Assembly: GCA_964413015.1 (NCBI GenBank)
Contig: CAYPQZ010000005.1
Span: 1 to 63,068 of the forward strand
Length of the DNA stretch: 63,068 bases
Source of the DNA: an uncultured Candidatus Saccharibacteria bacterium
GTDB taxonomy: Bacteria; Patescibacteriota; Minisyncoccia; Portnoybacterales; UBA2143
Reading direction: 5' to 3'
Shown in pieces: positions 2 to 20,607 of this stretch. The notes under the pieces were generated by a model. The model had not been told where the DNA came from, ran no database searches, and saw only the letters and a program-made list of their open reading frames with translations. The translations under genes were made by a program, and so were the position numbers. Within the stretch, counting starts at the first letter, position 1, and the number at the start of each line of letters is the position of its first letter.

Positions 2-199
2 GGCGTAAAGTCATCTTTAGTATTTCTAAGAAGAAAAGATGAAAACAAAAAAACTGAAAACTACCCTATTTTTATGGCTATCGCTGAACATATTGGATAT
101 GACGCCGCAGGCAGAACAGACCCGATAAATGACTTAGATAACATTATCAAAGAATATAATAAATTTCTAAAGAATCCCAAAAATTATGACGGCTACTAA
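2..199 (+). CDS. hsdM: C-terminal end of an N6-adenine DNA methyltransferase, probably type I R-M HsdM (5-prime truncated by window edge)
   Basis: Open frame from the window edge (..YPIFMAIAEHIGYDAAGRTDPINDL..) ending TAA 197-199. It overlaps the hsdS ATG (186) by 14 nt, the usual hsdM-hsdS coupling. Confidence 0.55.
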   Translation, partial: GVKSSLVFLRRKDENKKTENYPIFMAIAEHIGYDAAGRTDPINDLDNIIKEYNKFLKNPKNYDGY

Positions 200-1535
200 T
201 AATAAATGCTTTAAAATATTTTTTAATGAAGTTGAAAACAGGATTGACCCAAATCCCTATAATCCTATTCGCTTGAATACAATCAAAAAAATAAAGAAAA
301 CTAAATACGAACTTTTACCATTAAAGGAAGTTGCGTTATTTAAAAAAGAAACAACAAAACAAAATAAAGAAAATTTGCCATATTTAGGATTAGAGAATAT
401 AGAATCAAATACTGGAAAATTTATTTCTTCTTTAGAAAAAAAAGAAAGTTTTGGCACAGCTTCAAAGTTTAAAAAGGGTAATATACTTTTCCCCAGATTA
501 AGACCTTATCTAAATAAAGTCCATTTAGCTAAATTTGACGGCTACTGCTCAACAGAATTTTATATTTTAGAAGTCCAAAAATGCCTTAGCGAATATCTGT
601 TTGCGTTCTTAATATCTAATCTAATAGTGAATCAGACATCTTATCTAATAACTGGGAACACTTTGCCAAGACTTCAAACAAAAGATGTTGAGAATCTTTT
701 GATACCTATTCCGCCTAAAAAAACTCAAGAACAAATCATTAAAATAATGGGATCTGCTTATAAAGAAAAAAGACAAAAAGAAAACCAAGCAGATGAATTA
801 TTAAATTCTATTGATGATTATACCTTAAACAAATTAGGTATAAAAATGCCAGAGACAAAAGATAAAATATGTTTTGCAATTAACTCTAAAGAAGCAACCA
901 ATAGATTGGATTCTCATTATAATCAGCCAAAGTTTAAAGAAATTAAAAATGCTTTTGAAAAAGGAAAATATAAAACCAAAGAATTTGAAGGTGTTATTAA
1001 AAACATAAACTATGGCACAATACCAAAAGATTATTCAAATACAGGGATTCCTCTATTAAAAATAGGCAATCTTAAACCCAACGAAATTATAACCAATGAA
1101 CTTTCTTATATCCCAGACTTCCCAGAAGAAAAAGATAAACAAAAAATAACCCAAAAGGACGATTTACTAATTTCCCAATTAGGAACTGTCGGGATAACTG
1201 CTCCTATTACAAAAAAAGAAGAAGGATTTCTGTATGGCTCTTTCATTTTAAGATTGCAGATTTTACAGGGAAATCCTATGTTTTTTAGCATTATCTTAAA
1301 CTCATCAATTGGAAAAACACAATTTCAAAGAGATATGACTACTGCTACAGTAAGAGCTAATACTTCTATTCCTGCAGTTAAAAGTATAAAAATCCCTATT
1401 CCACCCCTTGCAATCCAAAACAAGATAGCTGAAGGAGTTAAAAATAGAAACGGAAAAGCCAAAAAACTAAAGTCTGAAGCCGAAAGTGCAATCAAAAATG
1501 CTAAAGAAAAAATTGAAAAAATAATTTTAACTTAA
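186..1535 (+). CDS. hsdS: Type I restriction-modification specificity subunit HsdS with two target-recognition domains
   Basis: 449 aa with duplicated architecture. Conserved post-TRD repeats ..LPRLQTKDVENLLIPIPPKKTQEQI.. and ..IPAVKSIKIPIPPLAIQNKIAEGV.. are each followed by charged coiled-coil spacers. Confidence 0.85.
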   Translation: MTATNNKCFKIFFNEVENRIDPNPYNPIRLNTIKKIKKTKYELLPLKEVALFKKETTKQNKENLPYLGLENIESNTGKFISSLEKKESFGTASKFKKGNILFPRLRPYLNKVHLAKFDGYCSTEFYILEVQKCLSEYLFAFLISNLIVNQTSYLITGNTLPRLQTKDVENLLIPIPPKKTQEQIIKIMGSAYKEKRQKENQADELLNSIDDYTLNKLGIKMPETKDKICFAINSKEATNRLDSHYNQPKFKEIKNAFEKGKYKTKEFEGVIKNINYGTIPKDYSNTGIPLLKIGNLKPNEIITNELSYIPDFPEEKDKQKITQKDDLLISQLGTVGITAPITKKEEGFLYGSFILRLQILQGNPMFFSIILNSSIGKTQFQRDMTTATVRANTSIPAVKSIKIPIPPLAIQNKIAEGVKNRNGKAKKLKSEAESAIKNAKEKIEKIILT

Positions 1536-1539
1536 ATTT

Positions 1540-3051
1540 ATGAAAACAATAATCTTAGCCAGAGTATCAACTGAAGAACAAAAAGAAGCTGGCAATTCCC
1601 TACCAGCCCAATTATTGAGATTGCAGAAATACGCCCAAGATAAAAACCTTAAAGTGATTAAGGAATTTAGCTTTGACGAATCGGCTTGGAAACAGGAACG
1701 AGAAGAATTTCAAAAGATAATTGAGGCATTAAAAAGCTCAAAAGAACCAATGGCTTTATGTTGCGATAAGATAGACCGCCTAATAAGAAACTTTACGAAG
1801 GACTTAGCCGTTCTTGAAGAATTAAGGAAAGACGGCAAATTAGAGCTTCATTTTTCATCTGATAATATAGTTTTGGGTAAAGATTCCCCTGCTTCTGATT
1901 TATTCCGCTTTCAAATTGGCGTAAGTCTGGCAAATTACTATTCAAACACAATCAGCGACAATGTTAAAAGAGCTTACGAAATTAAAATACAACGGGGCGA
2001 ATGGATTGGCAAAGCCCCTATTGGATATTTGAACATCAAAGACGAAGATAACAAAGATAAAGACATAGAAGTTGATTTAGACAGAAGCCCCTATGTTATT
2101 AAAATATTTGAAATGTATGCTACTGGCAATTACTCTTTAAGAAAGATTAAAAAAGAAATGGACAAATTAGGGCTAAAAAGCGTTAGCGACAGCCCCAAAC
2201 CATTATCAATAAGTATGGTTGACCATACTCTTAGAAATCCATTTTATTACGGAATAATGAGAATCAAAGGAAAACTATATCCGCATAAATACCCTCATTT
2301 AATATCTAAACATCTATTTGATAAAGCCCAAGAAGTTAAAGATAATTGGCACAAGAAGCCGTTTAAATACGCTTCTAAGCCCTTTGCCTTCAGAGGGTTA
2401 ATAAAATGTGCTGATTGCGGTTGCACAATTACAGGCGAAACAGCTAAGGGGCATAAGTATTATAGTTGCACTAACTACCACAAAAAACACGACAAGAAAA
2501 TTTATGTCAAAGAAGAAGATTTATTAAAGCCGATTTACAAGATATTAAAAGGTATTCAATTAACTGATGATAAAGTTGAAGATTTGGTTGATGATTTGAA
2601 ACAAGCTAATAAATCCGAAAATAGATTTTTTACAAACAGCTTGCAGGAATTAAGAAAGGACTACGATAAATTAGAAAAAAGAATCAGCCGATTGGCTGAT
2701 GATAAGTATGACGGTTGTATTACTAACGATTTCTATAATAAAAAGTTTAAAGAATACGAAGAAAAACAGATAAAGTTAATAGCAGAAATGAACCTGCATA
2801 ACAAAGCAGACAAAGAGCATTATATTACGGCAAACACTATATTAAACCTTGCTCAAAGGGCTGAAAAAGTCTTTGAAGGTTCTGAAGAAGCCGAAAAAAG
2901 GCAACTACTGAATTTCTTACTTCAGAACCTTGAATTAAAGGGCAGAAAGCTAATGTATAAGCTAAAAACACCGTTTGATACGGTGCTTTTGGCTCATAAC
3001 TGTTCGGATTTGCTCTGCGGGCAGGACTCGAACCTGCAACCCACTGGTTAA
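1540..3051 (+). CDS. Large serine recombinase (resolvase-type catalytic domain, recombinase domain, zinc ribbon, coiled coil)
   Basis: N-terminus MKTIILARVSTEEQ (catalytic Ser motif), ..DRLIRN.., Cys cluster CADCGCTITGE..YYSCTNY, C-terminal coiled coil. The last 13 codons are antisense to tRNA-Asn. Confidence 0.9.
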   Translation: MKTIILARVSTEEQKEAGNSLPAQLLRLQKYAQDKNLKVIKEFSFDESAWKQEREEFQKIIEALKSSKEPMALCCDKIDRLIRNFTKDLAVLEELRKDGKLELHFSSDNIVLGKDSPASDLFRFQIGVSLANYYSNTISDNVKRAYEIKIQRGEWIGKAPIGYLNIKDEDNKDKDIEVDLDRSPYVIKIFEMYATGNYSLRKIKKEMDKLGLKSVSDSPKPLSISMVDHTLRNPFYYGIMRIKGKLYPHKYPHLISKHLFDKAQEVKDNWHKKPFKYASKPFAFRGLIKCADCGCTITGETAKGHKYYSCTNYHKKHDKKIYVKEEDLLKPIYKILKGIQLTDDKVEDLVDDLKQANKSENRFFTNSLQELRKDYDKLEKRISRLADDKYDGCITNDFYNKKFKEYEEKQIKLIAEMNLHNKADKEHYITANTILNLAQRAEKVFEGSEEAEKRQLLNFLLQNLELKGRKLMYKLKTPFDTVLLAHNCSDLLCGQDSNLQPTG

Positions 3052-3084
3052 CAGCCAGTTGCTCTACCATTGAGCTACCGCAGA
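3013..3084 (-). tRNA. tRNA-Asn (anticodon GTT)
   Basis: Hand-folded cloverleaf on the minus strand: acceptor TCTGCGG/CCGCAGA, anticodon stem ACTGG/CCAGT with loop CTGTTAA, T arm GCAGG-TTCGAGT-CCTGC, discriminator G. CCA is not encoded. Confidence 0.9.
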
Positions 3085-5619: not shown

Positions 5620-5735
5620 TTTCTAACGTCTACCCTCCTTTTTAAAACAACCTCGTAAAACAACGGTTATTTTGCTGGCCCGTCAAAGGCGGACACTAAA
5701 TTTCACAAATGTGCAAAGTTACAGAACCGTTTATG
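5620..5735 (+). repeat. Degenerate copy of the R1 mosaic repeat (shares TTCTAACGTCYAC..AACC..CGGTTATTTT..GCTGGCC with the 19503-19649 copy)
   Basis: Direct comparison with 19503-19649. An extra segment sits after GCTGGCC. The copy overlaps the 3-prime end of lspA. Confidence 0.5.
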
Positions 5736-7916: not shown

Positions 7917-7962
7917 GGTCTACGCGATAAAAAATATGCTTGGCTGATCACTTCGGTCCAGC
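7917..7962 (+). repeat. Mosaic repeat copy (module GGTCTACGCGATAAAAAATATGCTTGGCTG shared with 13474-13503, then ..ACTTCGGTCCAG)
   Basis: 30-nt identity with the 13474-13503 copy. The middle module is deleted relative to R1 copies. Confidence 0.7.
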
Positions 7963-8027
7963 AAAAAAGGGGTTAAGAGACTTTTTTCAAAATTTCTCTA
8001 TAATAGGGCTAAATTTTTCTTAAACCG

Positions 8028-8095
8028 GCCACTTCGGTCCAGATTAATAACAGATGAGGCCGTCAAGGGATTCTTTGGATTATTTAACTACACCT
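8028..8095 (+). repeat. Mosaic repeat copy, R2 module (GCCACTTCGGTCCAGATTAATAACAGATGAGGCCGTCAAGGGATTC..)
   Basis: About 60 nt align with 15217-15277. Four consecutive codons differ only by synonymous third-position changes in frame PLRSRLITD[EK]AVKGF. Confidence 0.7.
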
Positions 8096-9358: not shown

Positions 9359-9401
9359 TTCTATTTATTAATACAAATTAAAAGTTTTTTTCTTTCAGCA
9401 A

Positions 9402-10136: not shown

Positions 10137-10692
10137 ATTTTTGAAAAAGAGATTTCATAATCTCCTTGCCTCTTTTTAATCTAATACCAACTGTGGCAAT
10201 CGGGATATGTAAAACATCAGCAATTTCCTGATAAGTTAGATCCTCAAAATAATATAAAACTAATGGTTCGCGATACTTGGGGCCTAACTTATTAAGACAC
10301 TTATCCAACATCTGGCTAAGTTCCAATTGATTAGTTTCTTTATCAGCATTCTCCTTGGAAACAGAACGGGGCCATAATATATCTAAGTCAAAAAAAGGCA
10401 ATGGCTCTTTGCCCTTTTTTTTAATGGCGTTAATAAATTCATTGTGGGCAATGCGGTAGAGCCAAGAAGAAAACTTTCTTGAAGCGTCAAAGCTTTGGAT
10501 ATTGGCATAGGTTTTAATAAAGACCTCTTGAATTAAATCTTCGATATCATTGTAATTAAAAAGGAATTTTCTTCCATAGCGCAACATCTTCTCTTGGTAT
10601 CTTTTGACCAATATACCAAATGACTCAATTTTGCCCGATTGAACCATACGCACAATTTCCTCATCTGGAAGCTGGCTTAGCGATTTAGACAT
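10120..10692 (-). CDS. RNA polymerase sigma-70 family factor, ECF-type
   Basis: 190 aa. Region 2 (..DLIQEVFIKTYANIQSFD..FSSWLYRIAHNEFINAIKKK..) and region 4 (..YFEDLTYQEIADVLHIPIATVGIRLKRGK..). Confidence 0.85.
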   Translation of the reverse strand: MSKSLSQLPDEEIVRMVQSGKIESFGILVKRYQEKMLRYGRKFLFNYNDIEDLIQEVFIKTYANIQSFDASRKFSSWLYRIAHNEFINAIKKKGKEPLPFFDLDILWPRSVSKENADKETNQLELSQMLDKCLNKLGPKYREPLVLYYFEDLTYQEIADVLHIPIATVGIRLKRGKEIMKSLFQKYGFNK

Positions 10693-10731
10693 ATATGGCT
10701 CTTACTATATTTATACAACAAACTTCTTTTT

Positions 10732-11811
10732 TTATTTCAAATATTTCTCCACATTCTCCAAATGCTCCTCATAAATTTCAGCGCAATGAATATTTCTGTC
10801 ATTATCGTGGAGATAATAGAAACAATCGGTCTCGGCAGGATTCAGCACGGACTCAATAGCGTTAATGCCCGGATTGGCAATTGGATGAGGCGGAAGCCCC
10901 TTATAAAGATAGGTATTGTATTCTGAATCAATCTTTTTGTCGACAACTGTAATTGGCGTCCACCAGTTTTCAACGCCTTGATAGTATCCGTTTTTAATAT
11001 AGCAGTTATCAGGTTCCTGCTGGCAATCGCAGAGCCGTTGTTCTTTATTGCCCGAACTATGGCAGAGATCGCTGAAAGCCGACTGGCTGTCTCTGGTATA
11101 CTGGAGCGTGGCGTCAATTTCCAATTTCATATCATTAAGCAAACGATTCCAGATGATGCCGGCGATTAAAGGCATATCATTTTTGCCAGCCGCTTCCCTT
11201 TGGATAATTGAAGCAACCTTTAGAGCGGTTGTCCACTTAATATTTTCTTGGATAAATTCGTCTGAATAAGATGCGAACTTTTCATTAAACTTATTAATAA
11301 ATCTTTGAGCGATTTGCAGTCCTGTCTCGTCTATAGGGATAAGATAAGTATCGGGAAAATATACTCCCTCAAGATAATCATATTCCATAGCTGTATATTT
11401 GGTGACCCAGTCGCTTTTTTCCTGTTCATCCCAATTTAATGTTTGGGCTAGAATTTCGGCAATTTGCTCTTTTCTTAATCCCTCAGGAATAATCACCCAT
11501 TTCATATACGGACCCTGCTTGAATGCTTTGGCAATCTGCCAAACATTCATTGATTTGGATATTTTATAGGCACCGGGTTTTATTTCAGTATTGCCAAAGA
11601 CAATACGAAAAACAGCTTCATTTCTAATAAATTCCTGTTCTTTTAATTGCTCAGTTATTTCTTTTAAATCATTATTACCAATAGTAATTGTAAACTGCTC
11701 TGACTCGGCGTTTCTTTGCGGAGCCAAGAACTGATAAAAAAAAACAAACATAGTCAATCCTAAAACCGCTAATACCAATCCAGCGATTACCATTAGTATC
11801 CTCTTATTCAT
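10732..11811 (-). CDS. mltG: Endolytic murein transglycosylase MltG (YceG-like)
   Basis: 359 aa, N-terminal TM, ..IIPEG.., ..ASIIQREA.., ..YNTYLYKGLPPHPIANPGINAIESVLNP.. Confidence 0.85.
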   Translation of the reverse strand: MNKRILMVIAGLVLAVLGLTMFVFFYQFLAPQRNAESEQFTITIGNNDLKEITEQLKEQEFIRNEAVFRIVFGNTEIKPGAYKISKSMNVWQIAKAFKQGPYMKWVIIPEGLRKEQIAEILAQTLNWDEQEKSDWVTKYTAMEYDYLEGVYFPDTYLIPIDETGLQIAQRFINKFNEKFASYSDEFIQENIKWTTALKVASIIQREAAGKNDMPLIAGIIWNRLLNDMKLEIDATLQYTRDSQSAFSDLCHSSGNKEQRLCDCQQEPDNCYIKNGYYQGVENWWTPITVVDKKIDSEYNTYLYKGLPPHPIANPGINAIESVLNPAETDCFYYLHDNDRNIHCAEIYEEHLENVEKYLK

Positions 11812-13470: not shown

Positions 13471-13578
13471 ATGGGTCTACGCGATAAAAAATATGCTTGG
13501 CTGGCCATCGTGGACAATATCAGAACTATTATCCAACAACAGAAAGAATATATTCATATTCCAGACTTGTTAAAATAA
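13471..13578 (+). repeat. R1 mosaic repeat, copy 1. The only copy with an ATG (35-codon ORF MGLRDKKYAWLAIVDNIRTIIQQQKEYIHIPDLLK)
   Basis: Aligns with 17388-17466 and 19562-19649. 8 of 11 substitutions against copy 2 fall at third codon positions of this plus-strand frame. Confidence 0.7.
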
Positions 13579-13692
13579 TTTTATAAAGCTATTTCTAAAG
13601 AACAATAGGATAACTTTTCTTAACAAGCTTTTTAGAATTTGATACATTTATAATAGAATACATATAAAAAACACCTCTACTGGTTCCGTCCT

Positions 13693-14415
13693 TTAGCGGT
13701 GTTTTTTCTTTTTATACTCTAATTTTTTTCTTAAATTATCCATAAAAATAATTTTCTCCTTTGCCGTCTTTTTTAATAATACGGAACAGGTCTTAATATA
13801 AGGACTGATTACAAATTTTAACTTATCATTCTTATATAAATATTTTACTAATGAATAAAAATCGCCATCACTACTAACAATTAAAGCTTTACTGCATTTC
13901 TCGTAATCAATCATTGCTTGCAAAACTAAATCAGCATCAACATTTCCCTTAACTTCTCCTTTATTATCAGGCAAAGTTGGAAAAATCCAACCGTAGCCTC
14001 CTTCCAAATTACTGCCTATAAATAAATCTGATGTATGGCGTTCTTTTATAAGAGGCGCTAGATATTCCATTCCTACACCAATAATTGGCTTGACTAAAGC
14101 TATTTTCATCTCTTTTCCTAAAATCACACCAACGCCGGAGCAATCTGCAAATATCCTAGCAGAAATTTTTTTAACAACTGCTTCGTTTTTAGAGCTGAAA
14201 TATACTTTATTAATTGGATTTAGAATACGATTTGGGATATTCCATTCTTTCGGTTTAATAAAACTTCCTGATGTATTATATTGAACATCTTCAGCATTTT
14301 TCTTTTTATCCAATAATAATATTTTAAGATTTGAATCTGATAATTCTCTCGTTAAACAAAGCCCTGCTGGGTCCGCCCCAACAATAATTAAATCATAATT
14401 CTCTACACTCTCCGC
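13693..14415 (-). pseudogene. Chimeric, degenerate ORF: N-terminal part of an FAD-dependent (geranylgeranyl-reductase-like) oxidoreductase fused to the C-terminal part of a NYN/LabA-like domain
   Basis: The stop-free frame extends upstream of the TTG in the ORF track to 14415 and encodes ..YDLIIVGADPAGL.. (GxGxxG with the second G replaced by D) with no canonical start. ..ARIFADCSGVG.. and ..GGYGWIFP.. are flavoprotein motifs. From ..KGNVDADLVLQAM..ALIVSSDGDFYSLVKYL.. it is NYN-like. Confidence 0.5.
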
Positions 14416-14439
14416 CTAACCGACTCATTGAGGATTTTT

Positions 14440-15090
14440 TCAATCATCTATCTTTAATAAATAAGTCTTATCTTTTTTAGTCAACCTTTTGAAAAAATCA
14501 TCACTGTTAAAAACTAAACCGTAGTTCTCTTTAACTTCAGACAAAGTCGTCTGATAAAAATTGCCAACCAACGAAGCAGTTAAATCGGATAAAAGAATAA
14601 CATCCCAGCCTTTATTAAATCCGTCTCTCAACGAAGACTCAACACAAATCGAGGTATCAACGCCGCTAAACAGTAAAGTATCAACCTTTAAAGATTTCAG
14701 CCAAAGTTCCAGCTCGGTATCCTGAAAGACAGAATCCCGTCGTTTGAATAAAACCAACTCGGATAGCTTTTCCTTAAATTGGTCTATCAGTTTAGCATCC
14801 CAGCTTCCCTTGACACAGAGAGGAATCTTTTCAATCCGCTCTCGCCTTTTCTGAGGCAGAATCTGGTGGTTTTTTTCTAATAAATCAATCCCTGATTTTT
14901 CCCTAATCGCCTTGGTAAAAATAATTGGCATCCCTAAAGATTTGGCCTGTCCATAAGCAGCAACCAGTTTGGGAACAATTTTCTGGTATTTAGCGATATC
15001 ATAACCAAGTTTATCAAAGGAACCGCCTTTAGAGACAAAGCAGTTCTGCATATCAATAATAATTAAGGCTGGTTTAATTTTATAGTCCAT
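14440..15090 (-). CDS. Isochorismatase-family cysteine hydrolase
   Basis: 216 aa, ..ALIIIDMQNCF.., ..FTKA.., ..GVDTSICVESSLRDGFNKGWDVILLSD.. Confidence 0.85.
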   Translation of the reverse strand: MDYKIKPALIIIDMQNCFVSKGGSFDKLGYDIAKYQKIVPKLVAAYGQAKSLGMPIIFTKAIREKSGIDLLEKNHQILPQKRRERIEKIPLCVKGSWDAKLIDQFKEKLSELVLFKRRDSVFQDTELELWLKSLKVDTLLFSGVDTSICVESSLRDGFNKGWDVILLSDLTASLVGNFYQTTLSEVKENYGLVFNSDDFFKRLTKKDKTYLLKIDD

Positions 15091-15216
15091 AAAGTTAAAA
15101 AGATGGCTGTTTCCCGCCCGTTAATTTTATTCTAGCAATTTTCGTTGATCTTTACAAACGAATCAATCATTATATCAAAAAGGAGAGCCAAAACTCTTCT
15201 AAAAATGAATATTATA

Positions 15217-15307
15217 GCCACTTCGGTCCAGATTAATAACAGATAAGGCCGTTAAAGGCTTTCTTGGGCTATCTAGCAGTGATAATCTACAAAAAGTATT
15301 CGGCTAA
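15217..15307 (+). repeat. Mosaic repeat copy, R2 module (start-less frame PLRSRLITDKAVKGFLGL..)
   Basis: Aligns with 8028-8095. A TAG sits immediately upstream, and the frame is stop-free to TAA 15305-15307. Confidence 0.7.
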
Positions 15308-15408
15308 GAGTTATCGCCATTCAAACTTAAAGACGCTGACAAACAATCAACGTCTTTAAAAATGAAGATTTTACCGGAAAAGATAAAAATCTTTTCTAAC
15401 TACTAATC

Positions 15409-15990
15409 CTATTGGCCGGGGATAGAAAGATCTGAGGGCTTGCCAATTCTCTCCTGAGCTTGGAAAAGCCCGTATTCAGCTGCTGCCTGAGCCACCGCAT
15501 TCATGTTATTATAAGCTGTTTGAATGGCGTTTCTAGCTTGCTCAGGGCCTACCACAGCATTTTCCTCTGCCTGTTCAGGAAGGGTCTTTGCCCATTCATT
15601 AACATGAGAAAGAGCGGAATCAACAATATCAATGTAAGCATCCTTTTCGGTTGTTGTCATCTCGCCGGACTCTCTCTGAGCATTCTCCAGTGCTTTAGTG
15701 GCCTTAAACACGCCTGAATACATAATATGTTCTTGCGAATCACTAAGTTCATCCAGAACAAAATCCAATCCATAGTTTACATAACCAAGGGCTTGATCGT
15801 CCAAAGGTCTATGAAACATAACTTCGTACATTTTGGTCAGCTGTTCCTGATTGACTTGGCAAGTATTTTGGGCAGAAGCTACCTGTCCTTGATGCATTAA
15901 AACTGCCCCAAATAAAAAACCGCCAACAAAAAAAATCAAACCAAAAATTAAGCTTATTCCTAAATGACTTTTATTATTTAATAATCTCAC
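15409..15990 (-). CDS. Membrane-anchored secreted protein with a DUF4214-like segment
   Basis: 193 aa. GTG start preceded by AAAGGAGGTGAT. TM anchor, ..FHRPLDDQALGYVNYGL.. Confidence 0.6.
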   Translation of the reverse strand: MRLLNNKSHLGISLIFGLIFFVGGFLFGAVLMHQGQVASAQNTCQVNQEQLTKMYEVMFHRPLDDQALGYVNYGLDFVLDELSDSQEHIMYSGVFKATKALENAQRESGEMTTTEKDAYIDIVDSALSHVNEWAKTLPEQAEENAVVGPEQARNAIQTAYNNMNAVAQAAAEYGLFQAQERIGKPSDLSIPGQ

Positions 15991-16149
15991 CTTATATCAC
16001 CTCCTTTCTTATTTAAATTTTATAAATTCAGTTTAAAATTATGATAATATTGTACTAATTAATTATAGCACACTTATTCCTAAAATTCTATGAAAAAAAT
16101 AAAAGGGGAAAATAAATAATCAACGCCTAATAATCAACATCCTACAAAT

Positions 16150-16224
16150 TGGCTGCCGATATTGGACGAGGTCAGAATCTCTTTATCTGATATATCTACA
16201 CTTCGGTCACAATCGGCAAAGTAA
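16150..16224 (+). repeat. Degenerate mosaic repeat copy that bridges the R1 and R2 modules (..WLPILDEVRISLSDISTLRSQSAK)
   Basis: GGCTGCCGATATTGGACGAGGTCAGAA aligns with GGCTGGCCATCGTGGACAACGTTAGAA of R1. TATATCTACACTTCGGTC aligns with both the R1 tail and the R2 head. Confidence 0.5.
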
Positions 16225-16329
16225 TAATAAAGCTAGTCCCTTTATCCTTGCCTTCACTTTTGATAAAATTGATACAATTATTAGTATCTTCTTTGATATC
16301 AATCTTTAGTTTGATTTTAGGATATTTGT

Positions 16330-16731
16330 TCATTGTTTAAGCTTCTTTAATAAATCATCTCTGTCCATCTTAATTTTTGTCAGCTTGGGCCAGGTATTTA
16401 ATCCATCATTTTTAAATCTGGGCAGTAAATGAAAATGAAAATGAAATACAGATTGCTCTCCGTCAATTCCACTGGCATGCATTAAATTAGCTCCAGTAGC
16501 ATTGATTTTCTTTCGGTAGAGTAAAGTTAGTTTTTTGGCGACTTTAACCACCTTGGATAAAACACCTTCTGGAATATCATATAAATCAGCGTAATGTTTT
16601 TTAGGCGCAATCAAAGTATGCCCGTAAACTTCTACCTTTTGAGGCAAAAAACAAATTACATCTTTATCTTCATAAACAATCTTAGCCGGTTCTTCTTTAT
16701 TTATGATTTTACAGAATATGCAATCTCTCAT
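16330..16731 (-). CDS. HIT-family (histidine triad) nucleotide hydrolase/transferase
   Basis: 133 aa, ..CIFCKI.., histidine triad ..HFHFHLLPR.. Confidence 0.85.
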   Translation of the reverse strand: MRDCIFCKIINKEEPAKIVYEDKDVICFLPQKVEVYGHTLIAPKKHYADLYDIPEGVLSKVVKVAKKLTLLYRKKINATGANLMHASGIDGEQSVFHFHFHLLPRFKNDGLNTWPKLTKIKMDRDDLLKKLKQ

Positions 16732-16745
16732 AATTAAAATGGATA

Positions 16746-17369
16746 TTACTCAACAATGATAACTTCTCCATCTTTGAGCGCTTTGAACAACATTTTATTT
16801 TCTATCATATATTCTACGGCTTTTTTCGCGCTTTCTGCTTCTGCATGGTCTGACTGATAATGAGGGATTACAGAATAATTAAGAATTCCTAGGCCGTCCC
16901 AGGCAATCTCCGATTGATCGCCATAGGGCTTTATATTCGGGTCATCCACTAGATTCATACCTTTTAAGGTTGTTGACAACACACAAACTCCAGCGCTATA
17001 TCCCCCGTATAGAATATTGTCTTTTTTAACTAACTTTTTCAAAATCTCATCAAAACCGCTTAATTTCATAGCCTGTCTAAGCACAAAAAGATTGCCGCCT
17101 CTGACCCAAATCACGCCGAATTCCGACATCCTTTCTTCTAATTCGCCTTGTTTATTGAAATAGTCACGTAAATCTACTATCTCGATATCTAAACCCAGTT
17201 CTTCAAGTTGTTCTATGTCAGATTGTTCGCTTTTCTTTCTTCTTTCCAAATCATCTGAAAAATCAAGCGCATTGGAAATATAGGCGGTTTTTTTATTTTC
17301 GCTTGGTAATAGCTCTTTTAACTTATCGAGTTCGTTTCCTAACTTGTATGAAGATAAGTAAAATTTCAT
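16746..17369 (-). CDS. Peptidase E-like protein (S51 / type 1 glutamine amidotransferase-like)
   Basis: Start moved to MKFYLSSYKL (ATG 17369), because the longer ORF in the track runs into repeat copy 2. ..VRGGNLFVLRQAM.., ..GGYSAGVCVLS.. Confidence 0.7.
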   Translation of the reverse strand: MKFYLSSYKLGNELDKLKELLPSENKKTAYISNALDFSDDLERRKKSEQSDIEQLEELGLDIEIVDLRDYFNKQGELEERMSEFGVIWVRGGNLFVLRQAMKLSGFDEILKKLVKKDNILYGGYSAGVCVLSTTLKGMNLVDDPNIKPYGDQSEIAWDGLGILNYSVIPHYQSDHAEAESAKKAVEYMIENKMLFKALKDGEVIIVE

Positions 17370-17387
17370 ATTATTAATTAAATTTAA

Positions 17388-17466
17388 GCTGGCCATCGTG
17401 GACAACGTTAGAACCATTATCCAACGACAGAAAGATTATATCTATATTCCTGATTTAAGTCCGTAA
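17388..17466 (+). repeat. R1 mosaic repeat, copy 2 (start-less frame LAIVDNVRTIIQRQKDYIYIPDLSP)
   Basis: See 13471-13578. Similarity begins exactly at GCTGGCC. TAA at 17464-17466, 2 nt from the convergent TPR gene stop. Confidence 0.7.
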
Positions 17467-17468
17467 GC

Positions 17469-18077
17469 TTAATTTATTAATCTATCCAACATCAATTCAG
17501 CAAGCTTTGACTTTTTAGCTAATCTTTTTAAAATCCTTAAATACTCTTCTCTCTTTTCTTTATCATTTAATTTTCTATTAATAATTATTAAATTGGAAAG
17601 AGGGATAGCTGATTTTTCTTTGTTTCTACTTAAAAGAAATGCTTTCCTGTAATAAGCAATAGCCAATTTGTCTTTTTTCAATCTTCTGTAAATATTCCCC
17701 AAATCATTATAAGTGCTAAAATTTCTCTTTAAATTATGAGCTTTTTTATAATATTTCAAGGCCTCTGACATTTTCTCTTGATGCATCAAAACTGTACCCA
17801 TTCCTCGAAATGTTTCTTGTTTATTTTTTTCGTTCTTGATGTTTTTTCTAAAATACTTCTTTGCCTTATCTTGGTATTGACTTCTTAGGGATTTATCACT
17901 AATTTTCAAAGCCCATTGATCATAAAGCCAGCCCAATAGAAGATATATCTTAAATATTTCTTCGCTTTTTTTATCAACCTGTTTAAAATATTTCTCTAAT
18001 AATACCTTAGCTTCTTGGTATTTCTGCTTATTTAATAAGTTATTATATTTTTCAAAAATTATCTTTCTTTCTCTCAT
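17469..18077 (-). CDS. Tetratricopeptide-repeat protein
   Basis: 202 aa with repeated ..A..YY.KA...-type TPR helices (..ALKYYKKAHNL.., ..AIAYYRKAFLL..). Confidence 0.7.
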   Translation of the reverse strand: MRERKIIFEKYNNLLNKQKYQEAKVLLEKYFKQVDKKSEEIFKIYLLLGWLYDQWALKISDKSLRSQYQDKAKKYFRKNIKNEKNKQETFRGMGTVLMHQEKMSEALKYYKKAHNLKRNFSTYNDLGNIYRRLKKDKLAIAYYRKAFLLSRNKEKSAIPLSNLIIINRKLNDKEKREEYLRILKRLAKKSKLAELMLDRLIN

Positions 18078-18087
18078 ATTTAAAATT

Positions 18088-18122
18088 ATATAAAAAAGCC
18101 GTGATATTATTATACCACGGCC
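18088..18122 (-). terminator. Intrinsic terminator directly after the precursor-peptide gene
   Basis: Minus strand: GCCGTGG-loop-CACGGC followed by TTTTTTATAT. Confidence 0.65.
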
Positions 18123-18159
18123 GATTCAAAAGGTTAATAATCCGCAAAAGAACAATTTT

Positions 18160-18339
18160 CTAATCCACATCGCTATCAGTATCATTCCAGCCGCCAGTCT
18201 GAGTCTCTGTAATCGTATGATTGGCCTCAAAAGTGCCATTATCCAATAGAAACATCTGCAGTTTGGGATCATAACGACCATTAAATTCAACCTGTTTAAC
18301 ATCTTCTGCGAACTTAGCCAAAAAAGGTACTGTATTCAT
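18160..18339 (-). CDS. Putative graspetide (omega-ester RiPP) precursor peptide, 59 aa
   Basis: ATG 18339 preceded by GGGGTGAG, 14 nt after the ATP-grasp stop. Leader has PFLAKFAE. C-terminal core is TITETQTGGWNDTDSDVD. Confidence 0.65.
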   Translation of the reverse strand: MNTVPFLAKFAEDVKQVEFNGRYDPKLQMFLLDNGTFEANHTITETQTGGWNDTDSDVD

Positions 18340-18352
18340 TTTCTCACCCCTT

Positions 18353-19327
18353 TTAATTTTTAATGTGTTTTGCAAATAACGAAATAAGCGTATCTGTTAT
18401 CGGTAAATTAGTTAAATGCTCTATCCAATACCATTGACCATTAGGATTTACTTCCAGAAAAACATACTTATTATCTGGCGTCAAAATCATATCAAATGCT
18501 CCGAATTTCAAACCAGCAATTTCAAGAAATTCAACCAACCTTTCCTTAATTGCAACGGGTATTTCATATGGATAATGTGGCACATTGTCAAAATCATACC
18601 TTCGCCAATCATCCTTTGTTTGCGAAGATTTTTGAGATTCTATCGCGCAACTGAAAACACTATCTTCTATAACTGTAATTCTCAATTCCAATTTTTTCGG
18701 AATACAAGATTGAAAGAGTGTTGGGAGAAATTTTATAGATTCTAAATCTTCAAGATCTTTTGAGGTCAGCTTATGGGTATAGATATTTTTCAGTCGCTTT
18801 CCCTCTTTGATATGGCCGACTGAAACAGCCTTTGATATAATTTCTCCGTATTCCTCCTTAAATCCGTAAACCGCATTAGGGTTATTAGTCACCAGAGTAG
18901 GAGGTATTTCCAAGCCAATTTCTGTTGCCAAATTCAATTGATATAACTTATTATCAATCTCTTTGTTTCGAAAAGGATTATTTAGCCAAAACCTTTTCTC
19001 TAATAATCGCCAAATGTTACTTAAAATAAAATCAGATTCTCTTGATACAAACTCCACAATAGAAGAATCTATGATATCAGAATGAATATTTGGTTTTTCA
19101 GGCCTACGATACCAAACAGCAGAAATATTTTTTACGAGATCTATTATCCTTTCTTCGGCCTGAAGTTTTATTTTCCTGACTCCACTCCCATCAATCTTCA
19201 ATTCAAGAATATGCGAAATCAAAAGATCTTCCATATTCCATCGGAAAAACGGCAAATCTAATTCACGCAACTTTTTAATAACAATATCTGTGTGAGCATC
19301 TAATTTATTGCTCAAAATCAGCAACAT
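18353..19327 (-). CDS. ATP-grasp RiPP maturase-like ligase (MdnB/MdnC - MvdC/MvdD type)
   Basis: About 324 aa starting MLLILSNKLDAHTDIVIKKLRELDLPFFRWNMEDL, with ATG 19327 six nt after GGGAGGTGA. The ORF track starts at GTG 19336, inside that SD. C-terminal ..YVFLEVNPNGQWYWIE.. Confidence 0.75.
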   Translation of the reverse strand: MLLILSNKLDAHTDIVIKKLRELDLPFFRWNMEDLLISHILELKIDGSGVRKIKLQAEERIIDLVKNISAVWYRRPEKPNIHSDIIDSSIVEFVSRESDFILSNIWRLLEKRFWLNNPFRNKEIDNKLYQLNLATEIGLEIPPTLVTNNPNAVYGFKEEYGEIISKAVSVGHIKEGKRLKNIYTHKLTSKDLEDLESIKFLPTLFQSCIPKKLELRITVIEDSVFSCAIESQKSSQTKDDWRRYDFDNVPHYPYEIPVAIKERLVEFLEIAGLKFGAFDMILTPDNKYVFLEVNPNGQWYWIEHLTNLPITDTLISLFAKHIKN

Positions 19328-19502
19328 CTTTTTCACCTCCCTTCATCTGAATTCTCTTTCGTTATTTTGACTTTCAAAGAACGATTACGATTCAAATAAC
19401 CTAATGTCCACTATTAATATTAAAATATACTTATTTACAAATTTTGTCAAATAAATTTGTATACCAAATCGCCCCACCATTTAACTCGTTGTTACTCAAA
19501 AA

Positions 19503-19649
19503 GTTCTAACGTCCACACTCCCTATTAAAAACAACCGCATTAAATAGCGGTTATTTTATTTGCTGGCCATCGTGGACAACGTTAGAACCATCATTCAGCG
19601 ACAGAACGAACATATTTATATTCCCAACCTAACACTAACTGCCATCTAG
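19503..19649 (+). repeat. R1 mosaic repeat, copy 3, with its upstream arm (frame LLAIVDNVRTIIQRQNEHIYIPNLTLTAI)
   Basis: GTTCTAACGTCCAC (19503-19516) is the inverted complement of GTGGACAACGTTAGAAC (19572-19588). Inner hairpin AACCGC/GCGGTT at 19533-19552. 8 of 11 substitutions against copy 2 are at third positions. Confidence 0.7.
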
Positions 19650-19767: not shown

Positions 19768-20508
19768 CTACCGAAGCGTCCATCCTCCATCAACAATAAT
19801 TGTCTGACCTGTCATGTAATTAGACTTATCAGAGGCCAAAAAGACTACAACATTAGCAATATCTTTTATTGTACCCATTCTTGCCAAAGGAATCGCCGCT
19901 ATCGTTTGTTTTTTAACCTCTTCGTTTGATGTTTCGTCTGCTCCCGGAGTATCAATAGCGCCCGGGGCAACCGCATTCACATTTATTTTCTGAGGAGCCA
20001 ATTCCAGGGCCAAAGCTCTTATCATACTGCTCACTCCGCCCTTTGAGGCGCAATAATGGGTCAAGGATGGAAAGCCAATGAGAGCCGCAATTGAAGAGAT
20101 ACTGACAATCTTACTTCCTGACTTCATAATTTTTACCGCTGCCTGCGAACATAAGAAAACGCTTTTTAAGTTTACGTCTAAAACCTTATCCCAATCTTTC
20201 TCGGTCATATTCAAAAAGGGAACAAATGGGAAAACACCAGCGTTATTTACAAGAATATCTAATTGACTAAATTTTTCCATTGTTTTGGCAATCAAATTAT
20301 CTACATCTTCTTTTTGGGAAACATCACAACTAACTGCCAAGCCCTTAACTCCCATACTCTCTATTTCTTCAACAACTTTTTCGCAATCCTTTTGATTAAT
20401 ATCACTGACAACAACGTTGCATCCTTCTTTTGCCAAGGCGATTACTATTCCGTAACCAATGCCTCTTCTGGCACCGGTCACAATTGCTACTTTATTTTTT
20501 AATTGCAT
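19768..20508 (-). CDS. SDR-family oxidoreductase (FabG-like 3-oxoacyl reductase)
   Basis: Start moved to MQLKNKVAIVTGARRGIGYG (ATG 20508), because the longer ORF overlaps tRNA-Gln. ..NNAG.., ..YCASKGG.. catalytic motif. Confidence 0.85.
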   Translation of the reverse strand: MQLKNKVAIVTGARRGIGYGIVIALAKEGCNVVVSDINQKDCEKVVEEIESMGVKGLAVSCDVSQKEDVDNLIAKTMEKFSQLDILVNNAGVFPFVPFLNMTEKDWDKVLDVNLKSVFLCSQAAVKIMKSGSKIVSISSIAALIGFPSLTHYCASKGGVSSMIRALALELAPQKINVNAVAPGAIDTPGADETSNEEVKKQTIAAIPLARMGTIKDIANVVVFLASDKSNYMTGQTIIVDGGWTLR

Positions 20509-20536
20509 ATTAATTATTTTTTTTAATTTTAACCTG

Positions 20537-20607
20537 CTGCCGGGCAGGGATTCGAACCCCGATAACATCCTCCAAGGGGATGCGTCCTACCGTTAGACGA
20601 CCCGGCA
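20537..20607 (-). tRNA. tRNA-Gln (anticodon TTG), with an unusual anticodon loop CCTTGGA
   Basis: Hand fold: acceptor TGCCGGG/CCCGGCA (U1:A72, discriminator G73 as in bacterial tRNA-Gln), D arm GTCT-AACGGTA-GGAC, anticodon stem CATCC/GGATG, T arm CGGGG-TTCGAAT-CCCTG. Confidence 0.75.

What the first reader, a model, noticed from the sequence alone, without database searches (positions are those of the whole stretch)
13471..19649. Plus-strand mosaic repeat family that evolves like coding sequence and cuts a minus-strand accessory region into cassette-like modules
Seen in sequence:
- Three well-preserved copies (13501-13578, 17388-17466, 19562-19649) share GCTGGCCATCGTGGACAAYRTYAGAACYATYATYCARCRACAGAA...
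- In one plus-strand frame (LAIVDN[IV]RTIIQ[QR]Q[KN][ED][YH]I[HY]IP[DN]L), 8 of 11 substitutions are third-position for copy 1 vs copy 2, and again 8 of 11 for copy 2 vs copy 3. The few amino-acid changes are conservative.
- Only copy 1 has an ATG (35-codon ORF at 13471-13578). Copies 2 and 3 begin abruptly at GCTGGCC.
- Related modules occur at 15217-15307, 16150-16224, 7917-8095 and 5620-5735. The 16150 copy bridges the two module types.
- Every copy is on the plus strand, directly 3-prime of a minus-strand gene or gene pair. The resulting units are: chimeric ORF + isochorismatase; DUF4214 protein; HIT + S51 peptidase; TPR + precursor + ATP-grasp.
- In copy 3, GTTCTAACGTCCAC (19503-19516) is the inverted complement of GTGGACAACGTTAGAAC (19572-19588). 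This is reminiscent of integron attC inverse-core/core pairs (RYYYAAC/GTTRRRY), though not a canonical match.

Competing inferences:
- Displaced 3-prime gene ends left by serial site-specific integrations.
- A small-protein gene family.
- attC-like recombination sites that happen to be translated.
Basis: partly seen in the sequence, partly recalled or inferred. Interest (0 to 1): 0.7.

Follow-up and report, generated by a model that had tools for sequence, protein, structure and literature searches.

The report
Split serine-integrase tails marking island scars
The repeat is the detached last 25-30 codons of a large serine integrase gene, whose recombination site lies inside its own coding end; each integration next to a tRNA gene leaves one such tail, so the copies mark the edges of old mobile-element insertions rather than a new gene family or an integron.

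Summary
The three repeats (13498-13578, 17386-17466, 19560-19649, all +) are real and evolve like coding sequence.

**Parent gene.** It is a large serine recombinase (LSR). In five related loci (L001, L094, L098, L125, L138) one continuous 519-568 aa ORF ends in ...W-L-x-I-V-D-N-V-R-T-I-I-Q-x-Q-N-E-Y-I-Y-I-P-D-L....

**Two states of one gene.** In L080 an LSR 98% identical to L001's is the same up to ...AATGGCTG. It then reads into the reverse complement of the 3' end of tRNA-Gln instead of the tail.

**The window's own LSR.** It lies at 1540-3051 and is 44% identical to the tailed L138 enzyme. It also lacks the tail and reads into tRNA-Asn (3012-3084).

**Meaning.** The crossover site lies inside the 3' end of the integrase ORF. 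Integration at a tRNA 3' end moves the tail to the far end of the element. Complete examples are L084 and L085.

**Two layers of constraint.**
- The first ~27 bp are conserved even at synonymous sites, as expected of a P' half-site. Its outer motif lies 5 bp further from the crossover than in the tRNA half-site, the published LSR rule.
- The rest is conserved only at protein level.

**Verdict.** The window copies are co-oriented tail scars that subdivide a low-GC island beside tRNA-Gln. How arrays without an integrase arise remains inferred.

The parts
13498..13578 (+). Tail copy 1. TGG-CTG-GCC-ATC-GTG-GAC..., peptide WLAIVDNIRTIIQQQKEYIHIPDLLK*. A chance ATG at 13471 makes a 35-codon ORF.
   Evidence: A related strain (L082) is identical for about 47 nt left of the GCTGG core but only 81% identical in the tail, and homology is lost after the tail.
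17386..17466 (+). Tail copy 2. The W position is AAG; peptide (K)LAIVDNVRTIIQRQKDYIYIPDLSP*. It fills the whole gap between the TPR gene stop and the S51 peptidase start.
19560..19649 (+). Tail copy 3. The W position is TTG; peptide (L)LAIVDNVRTIIQRQNEHIYIPNLTLTAI*.
19503..19559 (+). Left arm of copy 3: motif D (GTTCTAACGTCCAC, an inverted and 3-nt shorter copy of the tail's GTGGAC-AAC-GTTAGAAC) plus a bidirectional terminator-like hairpin (AACCGC...GCGGTT) and a T-run.
   Evidence: composite z = -3.5. The same kind of arm precedes tails in L006, L019 and L052, and precedes tRNA-Gln in L064. Its role is unexplained.
5621..5735 (+). Second D-plus-hairpin arm (5621-5675), joined at GCTGGCC to a different right arm (5676-5735; LLARQRRTLNF...). 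This is a junction of the same type with an unidentified or degenerate partner.
   Evidence: In the syntenic L004 and L022 a canonical tail sits upstream of the same FKBP gene.
16149..16224 (+). Diverged tail relic: TTGGCTGCCGATATTGGACGAGGTCAGAATC..., peptide WLPILDEVRISLSD.... It fits the family-wide native-tail pattern WL..[LV]D..R.
   Evidence: L039 has a similar second block.
7917..7975 (+). Module A (7917-7946, identical to 13474-13503), joined at TTGGCTG to a short module C form (CACTTCGGTCCAG). Same left arm as copy 1, different right arm.
8028..8086 (+). Module C copy (GCCACTTCGGTCCAGATTAATAACAGAT...). It has a sharp left edge and its nature is unresolved.
   Evidence: (D15). No relatives in the 79 genome loci.
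15217..15307 (+). Module C copy between the isochorismatase module and the 193-aa gene.
   Evidence: (D15).
1540..3051 (+). Large serine recombinase, 503 aa, with Resolvase + Recombinase + Zn_ribbon_recom domains. The body ends ...TPFDTVLLAHNCSDL. The last 12 codons (LCGQDSNLQPTG*) are the antisense of tRNA-Asn. The native tail is missing.
   Evidence: It is 44% identical over aa 1-487 to the L138 LSR, which ends WLRIVEDVRTIIQQQNEYIYIPDLRQVSL*.
3012..3084 (-). tRNA-Asn(gtt). Its 3' end forms the B'-type half-site joined to the LSR body, an attR-type junction at about 3010-3016 (TTGCTC|TGCGGGCAGGACTCGAACC).
186..1535 (+). Type I R-M specificity (HsdS-like) gene directly upstream of the LSR. It is probably cargo of the element integrated at tRNA-Asn. 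The element's far end lies left of the window.
   Evidence: GC is 0.31-0.33 here against 0.40-0.47 in the core.
20536..20607 (-). tRNA-Gln(ttg), next to dnaX. It is the probable original target whose 3' side now carries the accreted island (13.5-20.5 kb).
   Evidence: The same dnaX-tRNA-Gln arrangement with tails 1-3.5 kb to the 3' side occurs in L018, L019, L040, L048, L055 and L071.
13693..15090 (-). Module 1 cargo: NYN-like ORF (13693-14313) plus isochorismatase (14440-15090).
   Evidence: A NYN-like gene also follows the tail in L062 and, judged from the ORF sequence alone, in L024.
15409..15990 (-). Module 2 cargo: 193-aa protein with an N-terminal hydrophobic segment and no Pfam hit.
16330..17371 (-). 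Module 3 cargo: HIT hydrolase (16330-16731) plus S51 peptidase (16746-17371).
17469..19336 (-). Module 4 cargo: TPR protein, a small ORF (18160-18375) and an MvdD-type ATP-grasp, a RiPP-like cluster.
19768..20508 (-). Module 5: SDR/FabG-like gene between copy 3 and tRNA-Gln.

Best explanation
**What the repeat is.** It is the C-terminal tail, the last 25-30 codons, of a family of large serine recombinases (LSRs) of Patescibacteria/CPR. It begins exactly at the enzyme's own crossover site.

**How integration splits the gene.**
- In the uninterrupted gene the ORF runs body -> ...W-L | x-I-V-D-N-V-R-T-I-I-Q...Y-I-Y-I-P-D-L -> stop.
- The crossover lies in G-C-T of TGG-CTN. In targets that encode CCA (L080) the TGG is the complement of the tRNA's CCA end; the C is the complement of its discriminator base.
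- The enzyme integrates its element at the 3' end of a tRNA gene lying on the opposite strand.
- The LSR body is then joined to the antisense of the tRNA, giving a protein that ends WLP..DSN...
- The tail with its P' half-site is carried to the far end of the element.

**Why the copies look coding yet lack a start.**
- The first ~27 bp of each copy is the P'-type half-site, constrained as DNA.
- The remainder was constrained only as protein while it was part of an active integrase.
- Each copy is therefore a sample of a once-functional LSR lineage.

**The window.**
- One such LSR (1540-3051) sits in the integrated state at tRNA-Asn.
- The three tails, plus a diverged one at 16150, are scars of earlier elements integrated on the 3' side of tRNA-Gln (20536-20607).
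- Their integrase bodies have since been lost. What remains is a low-GC accretion of small accessory gene modules separated by co-oriented tails.

**Shown:** the identity of the repeat, the two recombination states, the tRNA targeting and the geometry of complete elements.

**Inferred:** the order of events and how arrays without an integrase arose. The likely routes are repeated integration at the same tRNA after decay of the previous integrase, or insertion into a hybrid site.
For: **1. Continuous ORFs with the exact tail.**
- L001, 519 aa.
- L094 (549 aa), L098 (524 aa), L125 (568 aa), L138 (535 aa).
- L063, L134 and L139 start inside an LSR 3' end that runs into the tail.

**2. The same gene in two states.** L080 carries an LSR 98% identical to L001's, with the same upstream genes. 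The DNA is identical up to ...CAATGGCTG. It then continues as CCGGGCAGGGACTCGAACC, the complement of tRNA-Gln at 11462-11535 (-). L001 continues ACCATCGTGGACAATGTTAGAACC.

**3. The same left arm with tail or tRNA in one MAG.** L019 4925 carries the tail and L064 6750 the tRNA.

**4. LSRs read into tRNAs.** All 5 LSR loci examined read into the 3' end of a minus-strand tRNA: window, L068, L080, L084, L085. Of 120 homologues, 60 end WL..x.DSN.. (antisense T-arm), 39 stop 2 residues after WL, and about 15 carry native tails.

**5. Complete split elements in sister subfamilies.**
- L085: tail at ~1690-1860, cargo, then LSR 10001-11515 joined to tRNA-Gln.
- L084: tail at ~4890-5010, then LSR 10001-11500 joined to tRNA-Asn.
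- Same subfamily: L123 has a tail at 3057 and an LSR-end remnant at 9242-9337 abutting tRNA-Gln 9344-9417.

**6. Half-site logic.** P' reads GC-TGACCATCGTGGAC-AATGT-TAGAACC. B' (tRNA) reads GC-TCTGCGGGCAGGAC-TCGAACC. The outer motif is 5 bp further out in the P-type site, as published for LSRs (PMC3783163).

**7. Two layers of constraint.** Third-codon positions carry 1.0-1.9 bits in -10..+5 but mostly 0.3-1.0 bits further 3'. Arg is encoded by CGA, CGG, AGG and AGA; Leu by TTA, TTG and CTN; Ser by AGY and TCN.

**8. Co-orientation.** 110 + 105 DNA-level copies are all co-oriented within their loci.

**9. Composition.** GC is lower at 12-20 kb and 1-3 kb than in the core.
Against: - No LSR body or remnant lies next to the three window tails. 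Their origin by integration is inferred from other loci.
- The junction left of tRNA-Gln (20509-20535) shows no LSR remnant.
- Canonical LSRs do not recombine attP with attL or attR, so tandem arrays need an extra assumption.
- Almost all copies keep an open frame. This fits young scars, but it would also fit selection in place.
- Motif D lies 45-60 nt from the crossover, and module C is not explained by the model.
- The exact crossover dinucleotide is not fixed. GC would be palindromic; CT is more plausible.
Confidence: 0.85

Rival explanations
1. The tails are live att sites of integrase-less mobilisable cassettes. Each module (tail ... next tail) would be excised and re-inserted in trans by a resident LSR, so the array works like an integron built on a serine recombinase and tRNA genes.
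For: - Arrays of 2-4 co-oriented tails 0.4-3 kb apart, with no integrase between them, occur in many genomes.
- The first 27 bp stay conserved as DNA.
- Left arms reassort with different right arms: A|tail versus A|C, and D|tail versus D|tRNA.
- L094 shows LSR1+tail, 7 kb of cargo, then LSR2.
- A NYN-like first cargo gene recurs next to tails.
- Dehalococcoides ssrA islands include integrase-less 'cis-mobilisable' units (PMC3146451).
Against: - No circular cassette junction or presence/absence polymorphism of a single integrase-less module was seen.
- Protein-level conservation of the distal tail is not needed for a mere att site.
- LSR hybrid sites are normally inert without a directionality factor.
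Confidence: 0.2
2. The repeats are independent small-protein genes of about 25-35 aa, under selection where they sit.
For: - The substitution pattern is coding-like.
- The frame is open in ~95% of copies.
- Copy 1 has an ATG, and gene callers report 50 short ORFs.
- The tail is conserved in the related strain L082.
Against: - There is no conserved start. The boundary codon is TGG, TTG, TAG, AAG, AGG and others, and is a stop in 5 of 81 copies.
- Only 15 of 81 copies have an in-frame ATG.
- The N-termini of the called ORFs are unrelated.
- The block is the end of a 519-568 aa ORF in five loci.
Confidence: 0.03
3. The repeats are integron attC sites that separate gene cassettes.
For: - Co-oriented repeats lie between short cassettes.
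- There is a GTTAGAAC / GTTCTAAC inverted pair at copy 3.
Against: - Single-strand folding of the units is not better than shuffles (z from -1.3 to +1.1).
- Sequence is 80-90% conserved across phylum-level lineages, unlike attC.
- GTTAGAA(C) fails GTTRRRY.
- No tyrosine integrase was found among the 30 window ORFs scanned.
- The block is part of a serine recombinase ORF.
Confidence: 0.02
4. The repeats are a structured non-coding RNA, or a tmRNA-like tag template.
For: - The block is conserved without a start codon.
- Some tails end ...YANA or ...PQA, which recalls ssrA tags.
Against: - No Rfam hit.
- No tmRNA was found by ARAGORN in the window or in any of the scanned loci L001-L085 and L086-L165.
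- No significant fold.
- Synonymous codon switching for Arg, Leu and Ser shows selection on amino acids.
Confidence: 0.02

Closest known systems
Large serine integrases of phages and mobile elements (A118/LI, Bxb1, phiC31) and their attP/attB architecture
   Same: - The domain set is the same: Resolvase + Recombinase + zinc ribbon with a coiled coil.
- Arms are short, and the crossover falls at a small shared core.
- The outer (ZD) motif lies 5 bp closer to the centre in the B-type half-site than in the P-type one (PMC3783163).
   Different: - Here the crossover lies inside the integrase ORF, about 30 codons before its stop, so integration swaps the C-terminal tail.
- The target is the 3' end of tRNA genes (acceptor stem plus T-arm), used across several tRNA species.
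- I found no paper describing either feature for serine integrases. That is absence in the searched library only.
Dehalococcoides ssrA-specific genomic islands with the serine recombinase DsiB (McMurdie et al. 2011, PMC3146451)
   Same: - A serine recombinase integrates islands at the tRNA-like 3' end of a small RNA gene.
- Tandem islands accumulate downstream, bounded by co-oriented repeats, and some lack the integration module.
- Homologues of the present LSR family occur in Dehalococcoidia and Chloroflexota.
   Different: - There the boundary repeat is a 20-bp copy of the ssrA 3' end.
- Here it is a ~75-90 bp piece of the integrase's own coding sequence, and the targets are ordinary tRNA genes in CPR bacteria.
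- Whether DsiB also reads across its site was not tested.
SSV-type 'suicidal' tyrosine integrases of archaea (PMC7253208)
   Same: The recombination site lies within the integrase ORF. Integration at a tRNA gene splits the gene, and the fragments flank the integrated element and persist as relics.
   Different: - The enzyme family is unrelated: tyrosine versus serine.
- SSV integrases are cut into two pseudogenes.
- Here every recognised domain stays on one piece and only the last 25-35 residues are exchanged.
Integration-dependent immunity of mycobacteriophage BPs and relatives (PMC4557955)
   Same: attP lies in the 3' end of a gene, so integration changes that protein's C-terminus and with it its behaviour.
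   Different: There the gene is the repressor and the integrase is a tyrosine enzyme. A regulatory role of the tail swap here is only a hypothesis.
Integron cassette arrays (attC sites)
   Same: Co-oriented recombination sites separate short promoter-poor cassettes.
   Different: The recombinase family differs, the single-strand hairpin logic is absent, and the sequence is conserved and coding.

Membership tests
att-site remnant (P' arm plus displaced coding tail) of a large serine recombinase element | A recombinase with Resolvase, Recombinase and zinc-ribbon domains belongs to the system | tested here: met
   The window LSR 1540-3051 has PF00239, PF07508 and PF13408. L001's LSR has PF00239 and PF07508. 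Precomputed hits for the 120 listed homologues show PF00239 in all, PF07508 in all but two, and PF13408 in most.
att-site remnant (P' arm plus displaced coding tail) of a large serine recombinase element | The repeat is contiguous with the recombinase ORF in uninterrupted copies | tested here: met
   L001, L094, L098, L125 and L138 are single ORFs of 519-568 aa ending in the repeat.
att-site remnant (P' arm plus displaced coding tail) of a large serine recombinase element | The same left arm is found joined either to the repeat or to the target (two recombination states), with a sharp common breakpoint | tested here: met
   L001 versus L080: 98% identical LSR, breakpoint after ...AATGGCTG. L019 versus L064. 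Conservation among 81 copies starts at the GC of xxG-CTN.
att-site remnant (P' arm plus displaced coding tail) of a large serine recombinase element | P-type and B-type half-sites share motifs, with the outer motif shifted by 5 bp | tested here: met
   GGAC-AAYGT-TAGAACC (tail) versus GGAC-TCGAACC (tRNA-Asn) and GGGAC-TCGAACC (tRNA-Gln) at equal distance from the core. The rule is from PMC3783163. Read by eye on a few sites; no statistical test.
att-site remnant (P' arm plus displaced coding tail) of a large serine recombinase element | In an integrated element the tail lies at the end opposite the recombinase body, in the same orientation | tested here: met
   L085 and L084 (sister tail types). 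L123 (same tail type, degraded body next to tRNA-Gln). Not shown for the three window copies themselves.
att-site remnant (P' arm plus displaced coding tail) of a large serine recombinase element | The enzyme recombines these sites | not testable with these tools
   Needs an in vivo or in vitro recombination assay.
Integron attC site | Imperfect palindrome that folds as a single-strand hairpin (R''-L''/L'-R') | tested here: not met
   ssDNA folds of the three units on both strands give z from -1.3 to +1.1 against shuffles.
Integron attC site | Conserved R' core GTTRRRY at the cassette boundary | tested here: not met
   GTTAGAA-C has A at position 7. The sharp boundary is 27 nt upstream, at GCT, not at this motif.
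Integron attC site | IntI-type tyrosine integrase with attI at the head of the array | tested here: inconclusive
   No Phage_integrase hit in the 30 window ORFs scanned. Not every ORF of the window was scanned.
Independent small-protein gene | Conserved start codon and own translation signals | tested here: not met
   Boundary codon is TGG 36, TTG 15, TAG 5 and others. 15 of 81 copies have an in-frame ATG before a stop. N-termini of the 50 called ORFs are unrelated.
SSV-type split integrase | Tyrosine recombinase fold or catalytic set | tested here: not met
   The enzyme is a serine recombinase. Only the principle, an att site inside the ORF, is shared.
tmRNA / tag template | tRNA-like domain and tag frame detectable | tested here: not met
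   ARAGORN and Rfam find none.
Diversity-generating retroelement VR/TR pair | Differences confined to adenine positions of a template repeat, with a reverse transcriptase nearby | tested here: not met
   The differences are mostly third-position transitions of all kinds. No RT was seen among the scanned ORFs.

The most novel reading that the evidence does not exclude
The tail swap could be a built-in state switch. The free element makes a full-length integrase whose conserved tail is needed for integration, or tunes it or the enzyme's stability. Once integrated, the enzyme carries a few residues encoded by the antisense of the tRNA and behaves differently. Tail-flanked modules without an integrase could also be moved in trans, giving CPR bacteria an integron-like way to accrete cassettes at tRNA genes, based on a serine recombinase.
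Probability: 0.3. Interest if true: 0.8.

Novelty: new variant of a known kind. Interest (0 to 1): 0.6.

Why it matters
- **Explains a very common orphan ORF.** Gene callers report the block as unrelated tiny ORFs.
- **Gives a sequence marker for island boundaries.** CPR genomes are otherwise hard to dissect.
- **Points to a large family of serine integrases.** The search returned 846 homologues. They use tRNA 3' ends as targets and carry the crossover inside their own ORF.
- **Suggests a route to directionality control.** Exchange of the C-terminus on integration may be a simple way to couple enzyme properties to integration state.
- **May interest genome engineering.** Compact integrases with near-universal tRNA-derived targets could be useful tools.

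Tried and rejected
- **Parent gene inside the window.** A tblastn of the peptides found only the three copies and the A-module fragment.
- **First protein search.** It was repeated with a 42-aa read-through.
- **RNA element.** Rfam gave only the two tRNAs, both at gathering thresholds and at permissive E-values.
- **tmRNA tag.** This was suggested by ...YANA endings, but ARAGORN found no tmRNA in the window or in any scanned locus.
- **Phage origin.** There were no confirmed matches in IMG/VR viral contigs.
- **Integron attC.** The units have no significant hairpin. No literature links CPR to integron-like arrays.
- **Minus-strand coding.** The codon-aligned antisense frame is also open, but variable + third positions would be its first positions, so it was rejected (reasoning).
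- **GTG of Val as a start codon.** Rejected because GTA, GTC and GTT also occur.
- **Tail upstream of the L080 LSR.** None was found within 10 kb.
- **Left end of the window's own element.** The only other contig carrying this LSR is 2.3 kb.
- **Module C as a tRNA fragment or as a tail type.** No match to either.
- **Structure prediction of the tailed LSR.** Not attempted. The tailed proteins come from loci the tool does not accept, and the alignment around the tail would be dominated by tRNA-derived ends.

Full report
**1.

The window carries three co-oriented copies of a ~70-90 nt block at 13500-13568, 17388-17456 and 19562-19630, 80-86% identical. A degenerate 27-mer finds exactly these three, against zero expected.

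In the + frame they read (W/K/L)LAIVDN[IV]RTIIQ[QR]Q[KN][ED][YH]I[HY]IP[DN]L. Differences fall mainly on third codon positions:
- c1/c2: 2,1,7
- c1/c3: 4,1,8
- c2/c3: 2,0,8
- p = 0.02, 0.035 and 0.003

Only copy 1 has an ATG.

The other modules exist as described:
- Module A is identical at 7917 and 13474.
- Module C lies at 8028 and 15217, with a short form at 7949.
- A diverged peptide-coding copy lies at 16150.
- A D-plus-hairpin arm lies at 5621 and 19503.

The flanking genes are all on the minus strand. They are DUF4153, a NYN-like ORF, isochorismatase, a 193-aa protein without a Pfam hit, HIT, S51 peptidase, TPR, a small ORF, an MvdD-type ATP-grasp and an SDR. 'DUF4214' was not confirmed.

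**2. The block is widespread, and on its own it is not a gene**

A profile of the peptide found 50 database proteins of 24-74 aa from CPR metagenomes. They share the core but have unrelated N-termini, and no long protein was among them.

Scanning one genome per species gave 116 confirmed matches, almost all in genomes labelled Patescibacteria. A minority carry other labels such as Gammaproteobacteria, probably mis-binned contigs. Many matches lie at contig ends, and several loci hold 2-4 copies.

Aligned in register, conservation starts abruptly at the GC of xxG-CTN. The codon before it is TGG (36), TTG (15), TAG (5) or others. Only 15 of 81 copies have an in-frame ATG before a stop.

Amino-acid-level selection is nevertheless clear:
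- Arg is encoded by CGA, CGG, AGG and AGA.
- Leu is encoded by TTA, TTG and CTN.
- Ser is encoded by AGY and TCN.
- In the part not constrained by the search pattern, mismatches to consensus are 126, 89 and 321 by codon position.

A DNA profile found 110 copies in the genome loci and window, and 105 in the metagenome loci. Every one is co-oriented with its neighbours, and few are broken.

**3. The parent gene**

Clustering all ORFs around the copies showed a large serine recombinase on the same strand in five loci.

In L001 a 519-aa LSR ends ...KPFDTLAFYASRSQWLTIVDNVRTIIQRQNEYIYIPDLRPAILASQ, so the block is its C-terminal tail.

The metagenome loci add four more full-length ORFs with the exact tail: L094, L098, L125 and L138, of 524-568 aa. 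Three contigs (L063, L134, L139) begin inside an LSR 3' end that runs into the tail. From the coordinates, L139 looks like a circularly permuted ~10 kb element. The overlap itself could not be read.

The window's own LSR (1540-3051) has Resolvase, Recombinase and zinc-ribbon domains. It is 44% identical to the tailed L138 enzyme over residues 1-487. It ends ...TPFDTVLLAHNCSDL-LCGQDSNLQPTG*, and these last 12 codons are the antisense of tRNA-Asn 3012-3084.

**4. Two recombination states**

P0051 is 98% identical to the L001 LSR. Its contig (L080) has the same upstream genes and identical DNA up to ...CAATGGCTG. After that L080 continues with the reverse complement of the 3' end of tRNA-Gln(ctg), while L001 continues with the tail.

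Within one MAG, the same left arm is joined to a tail in L019 and to tRNA-Gln in L064.

All five LSR loci examined read into a minus-strand tRNA: window, L068, L080, L084 and L085.

Among the 120 best homologues:
- 60 end WL..x.DSN... D-S-N is GAC-TCG-AAC, the antisense T-arm, and in L080 the TGG is the complement of the tRNA's CCA.
- 39 stop two residues after WL.
- About 15 carry native tails of the general form WL..[LV]D..R[TN].

L085 and L084 show whole elements. A tail of a sister type sits at the left end, then cargo (an HTH_17 protein and restriction-modification genes), then the LSR body at the right end reading into tRNA-Gln or tRNA-Asn. L123 shows the same geometry for the present tail type, with a degraded body next to tRNA-Gln.

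**5. How it works**

The crossover lies within G-C-T of TGG-CTN.

On the tail side the sequence is GC-TGACCATCGTGGAC-AATGT-TAGAACC. On the tRNA side it is GC-TCTGCGGGCAGGAC-TCGAACC. The inner GGAC lies at the same distance from the core, and the outer motif is 5 bp further out in the tail. This is the published difference between P-type and B-type half-sites of serine integrases (PMC3783163).

Third-codon positions are strongly conserved only in these first ~27 bp (1.0-1.9 bits). Further 3' they mostly carry 0.3-1.0 bits. The start of the block is therefore constrained as a protein-binding DNA site and the rest as protein.

Integration thus exchanges the last 25-35 residues of the enzyme and leaves all recognised domains on the body. 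The coding-like divergence among orphan copies reflects divergence among active integrase lineages before each copy was detached. This last step is inference.

**6. The window**

*tRNA-Asn.* An LSR element with an HsdS-like gene (186-1535) is integrated at tRNA-Asn. Its far end lies beyond the window. A contig from the same population (L081, 100% identical over 3471-23578) breaks about 90 nt past tRNA-Asn.

*tRNA-Gln.* The three tails and the diverged tail lie on the 3' side of tRNA-Gln (20536-20607), which is next to dnaX. This arrangement recurs in L018, L019, L040, L048, L055 and L071. The region has lower GC than the core. No LSR body or remnant is present there.

*Related strain.* L082 is identical for about 47 nt up to the GCTGG core. 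Its tail is no closer to copy 1 than copies 2 and 3 are (81%), and homology ends after the tail. This fits different elements having used the same junction.

*Reading.* I read the region as an accretion of element remnants whose integrase ends were lost.

*How the array formed is not settled.*
- L065 and L014 show a tail followed directly by the tRNA, which suggests the tRNA site can be re-used after decay.
- L094 and the L001/L080 pair suggest insertion next to a resident LSR body.
- Both routes depart from the canonical rule that hybrid sites are inert.

**7. Comparison with known systems**

- The enzyme and its site logic are those of large serine integrases.
- Dehalococcoides ssrA islands are the nearest described case of a serine recombinase building tandem islands at a tRNA-like 3' end (PMC3146451).
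- An att site inside the integrase ORF is known for archaeal SSV-type tyrosine integrases (PMC7253208).
- C-terminal truncation by integration is known for a phage repressor (PMC4557955).
- I found no description of a serine integrase that spans its own crossover site or targets ordinary tRNA genes in this way, nor of this CPR repeat.
- Integron, small-gene, RNA, tmRNA and DGR readings each failed a defining test.

**8. Verdict**

The finding is real. Its first listed interpretation is correct in kind. The parent gene is the integrase itself. The window holds scars rather than an active novel machine. The family they reveal is an unusual and apparently undescribed variant of serine-integrase elements.

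Open points are motif D, module C, the exact crossover dinucleotide and the origin of integrase-less arrays.

Noticed in passing
window 19503-19516 and 5621-5633; L006 5263, L019 4865, L052 5947, L064 6692: Motif D (GTTCTAACGTCCAC) is an inverted, 3-nt shorter copy of the tail's half-site. It sits 45-60 nt left of the crossover with a terminator-like hairpin in between, next to tails and next to tRNAs. That is too far out for a standard LSR half-site.
   Followed up: partly
window 8028-8086, 15217-15307, 7949-7961: Module C (GCCACTTCGGTCCAGATTAATAACAGAT) has a sharp left edge like the tails. It has no relatives in the 79 genome loci and is not a tRNA fragment.
   Followed up: partly
L068 1130-1243 versus 2645-2764: A 114-nt inverted duplicate of the LSR 3' end, including tRNA-Ser-derived sequence, lies just upstream of the LSR start. 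It may be an inversion substrate or product.
   Followed up: no
window 17469-19336: RiPP-like cluster: MvdD-type ATP-grasp, a 71-codon ORF (possible graspetide precursor) and a TPR protein, carried as one tail-bounded module.
   Followed up: no
window 36483-36578 and 37123-37218: A 96-nt intergenic direct repeat, 89% identical, followed by an identical AT-rich stretch. Possibly a shared leader or promoter region.
   Followed up: no
window 33734-33856, 40874-40996, 50154-50276: A 123-nt repeat family, up to 92% identical, mostly in gaps between core genes (after serS, near the WecB/TagA-like gene, after rpoC); the 40874 copy overlaps the predicted 3' end of ORF 40946-41800. No Rfam hit.
   Followed up: no
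window 61385-62971: Periodic CGTCCCGATGCCGACGTTGCC motif, 7 copies spaced 129-339 nt apart (each spacing a multiple of 3), inside the >1000-aa ORF that runs off the window end. This is a repeat-domain surface protein gene on the minus strand.
   Followed up: no
window 40791-40856 and 59859-59932: TGTGGATAA (DnaA-box-like) followed by TTTTTAATTTTTAATTTTTAA runs at two intergenic sites.
   Followed up: no
window 25038-27539: An 833-aa HerA/VirD4-like ATPase (DUF87, T4SS-DNA_transf, TrwB hits) among core genes.
   Followed up: no
L084 6540-6860: A second, truncated LSR C-terminal pseudogene (last ~110 aa, ending WLPPCTHRG...) inside an intact element. It is flanked by two copies of TACCCATCGTGGGCGG, which resembles the tail's CCATCGTGGAC.
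   Followed up: no
L084 8315-8500, L085 4597-4776, L026 10935-11156: Small HTH genes recur as element cargo: HTH_17 (excisionase/MerR-like) in L084 and L085, and an unscanned ORF of similar sequence in L026. They are candidate recombination directionality factors.
   Followed up: no
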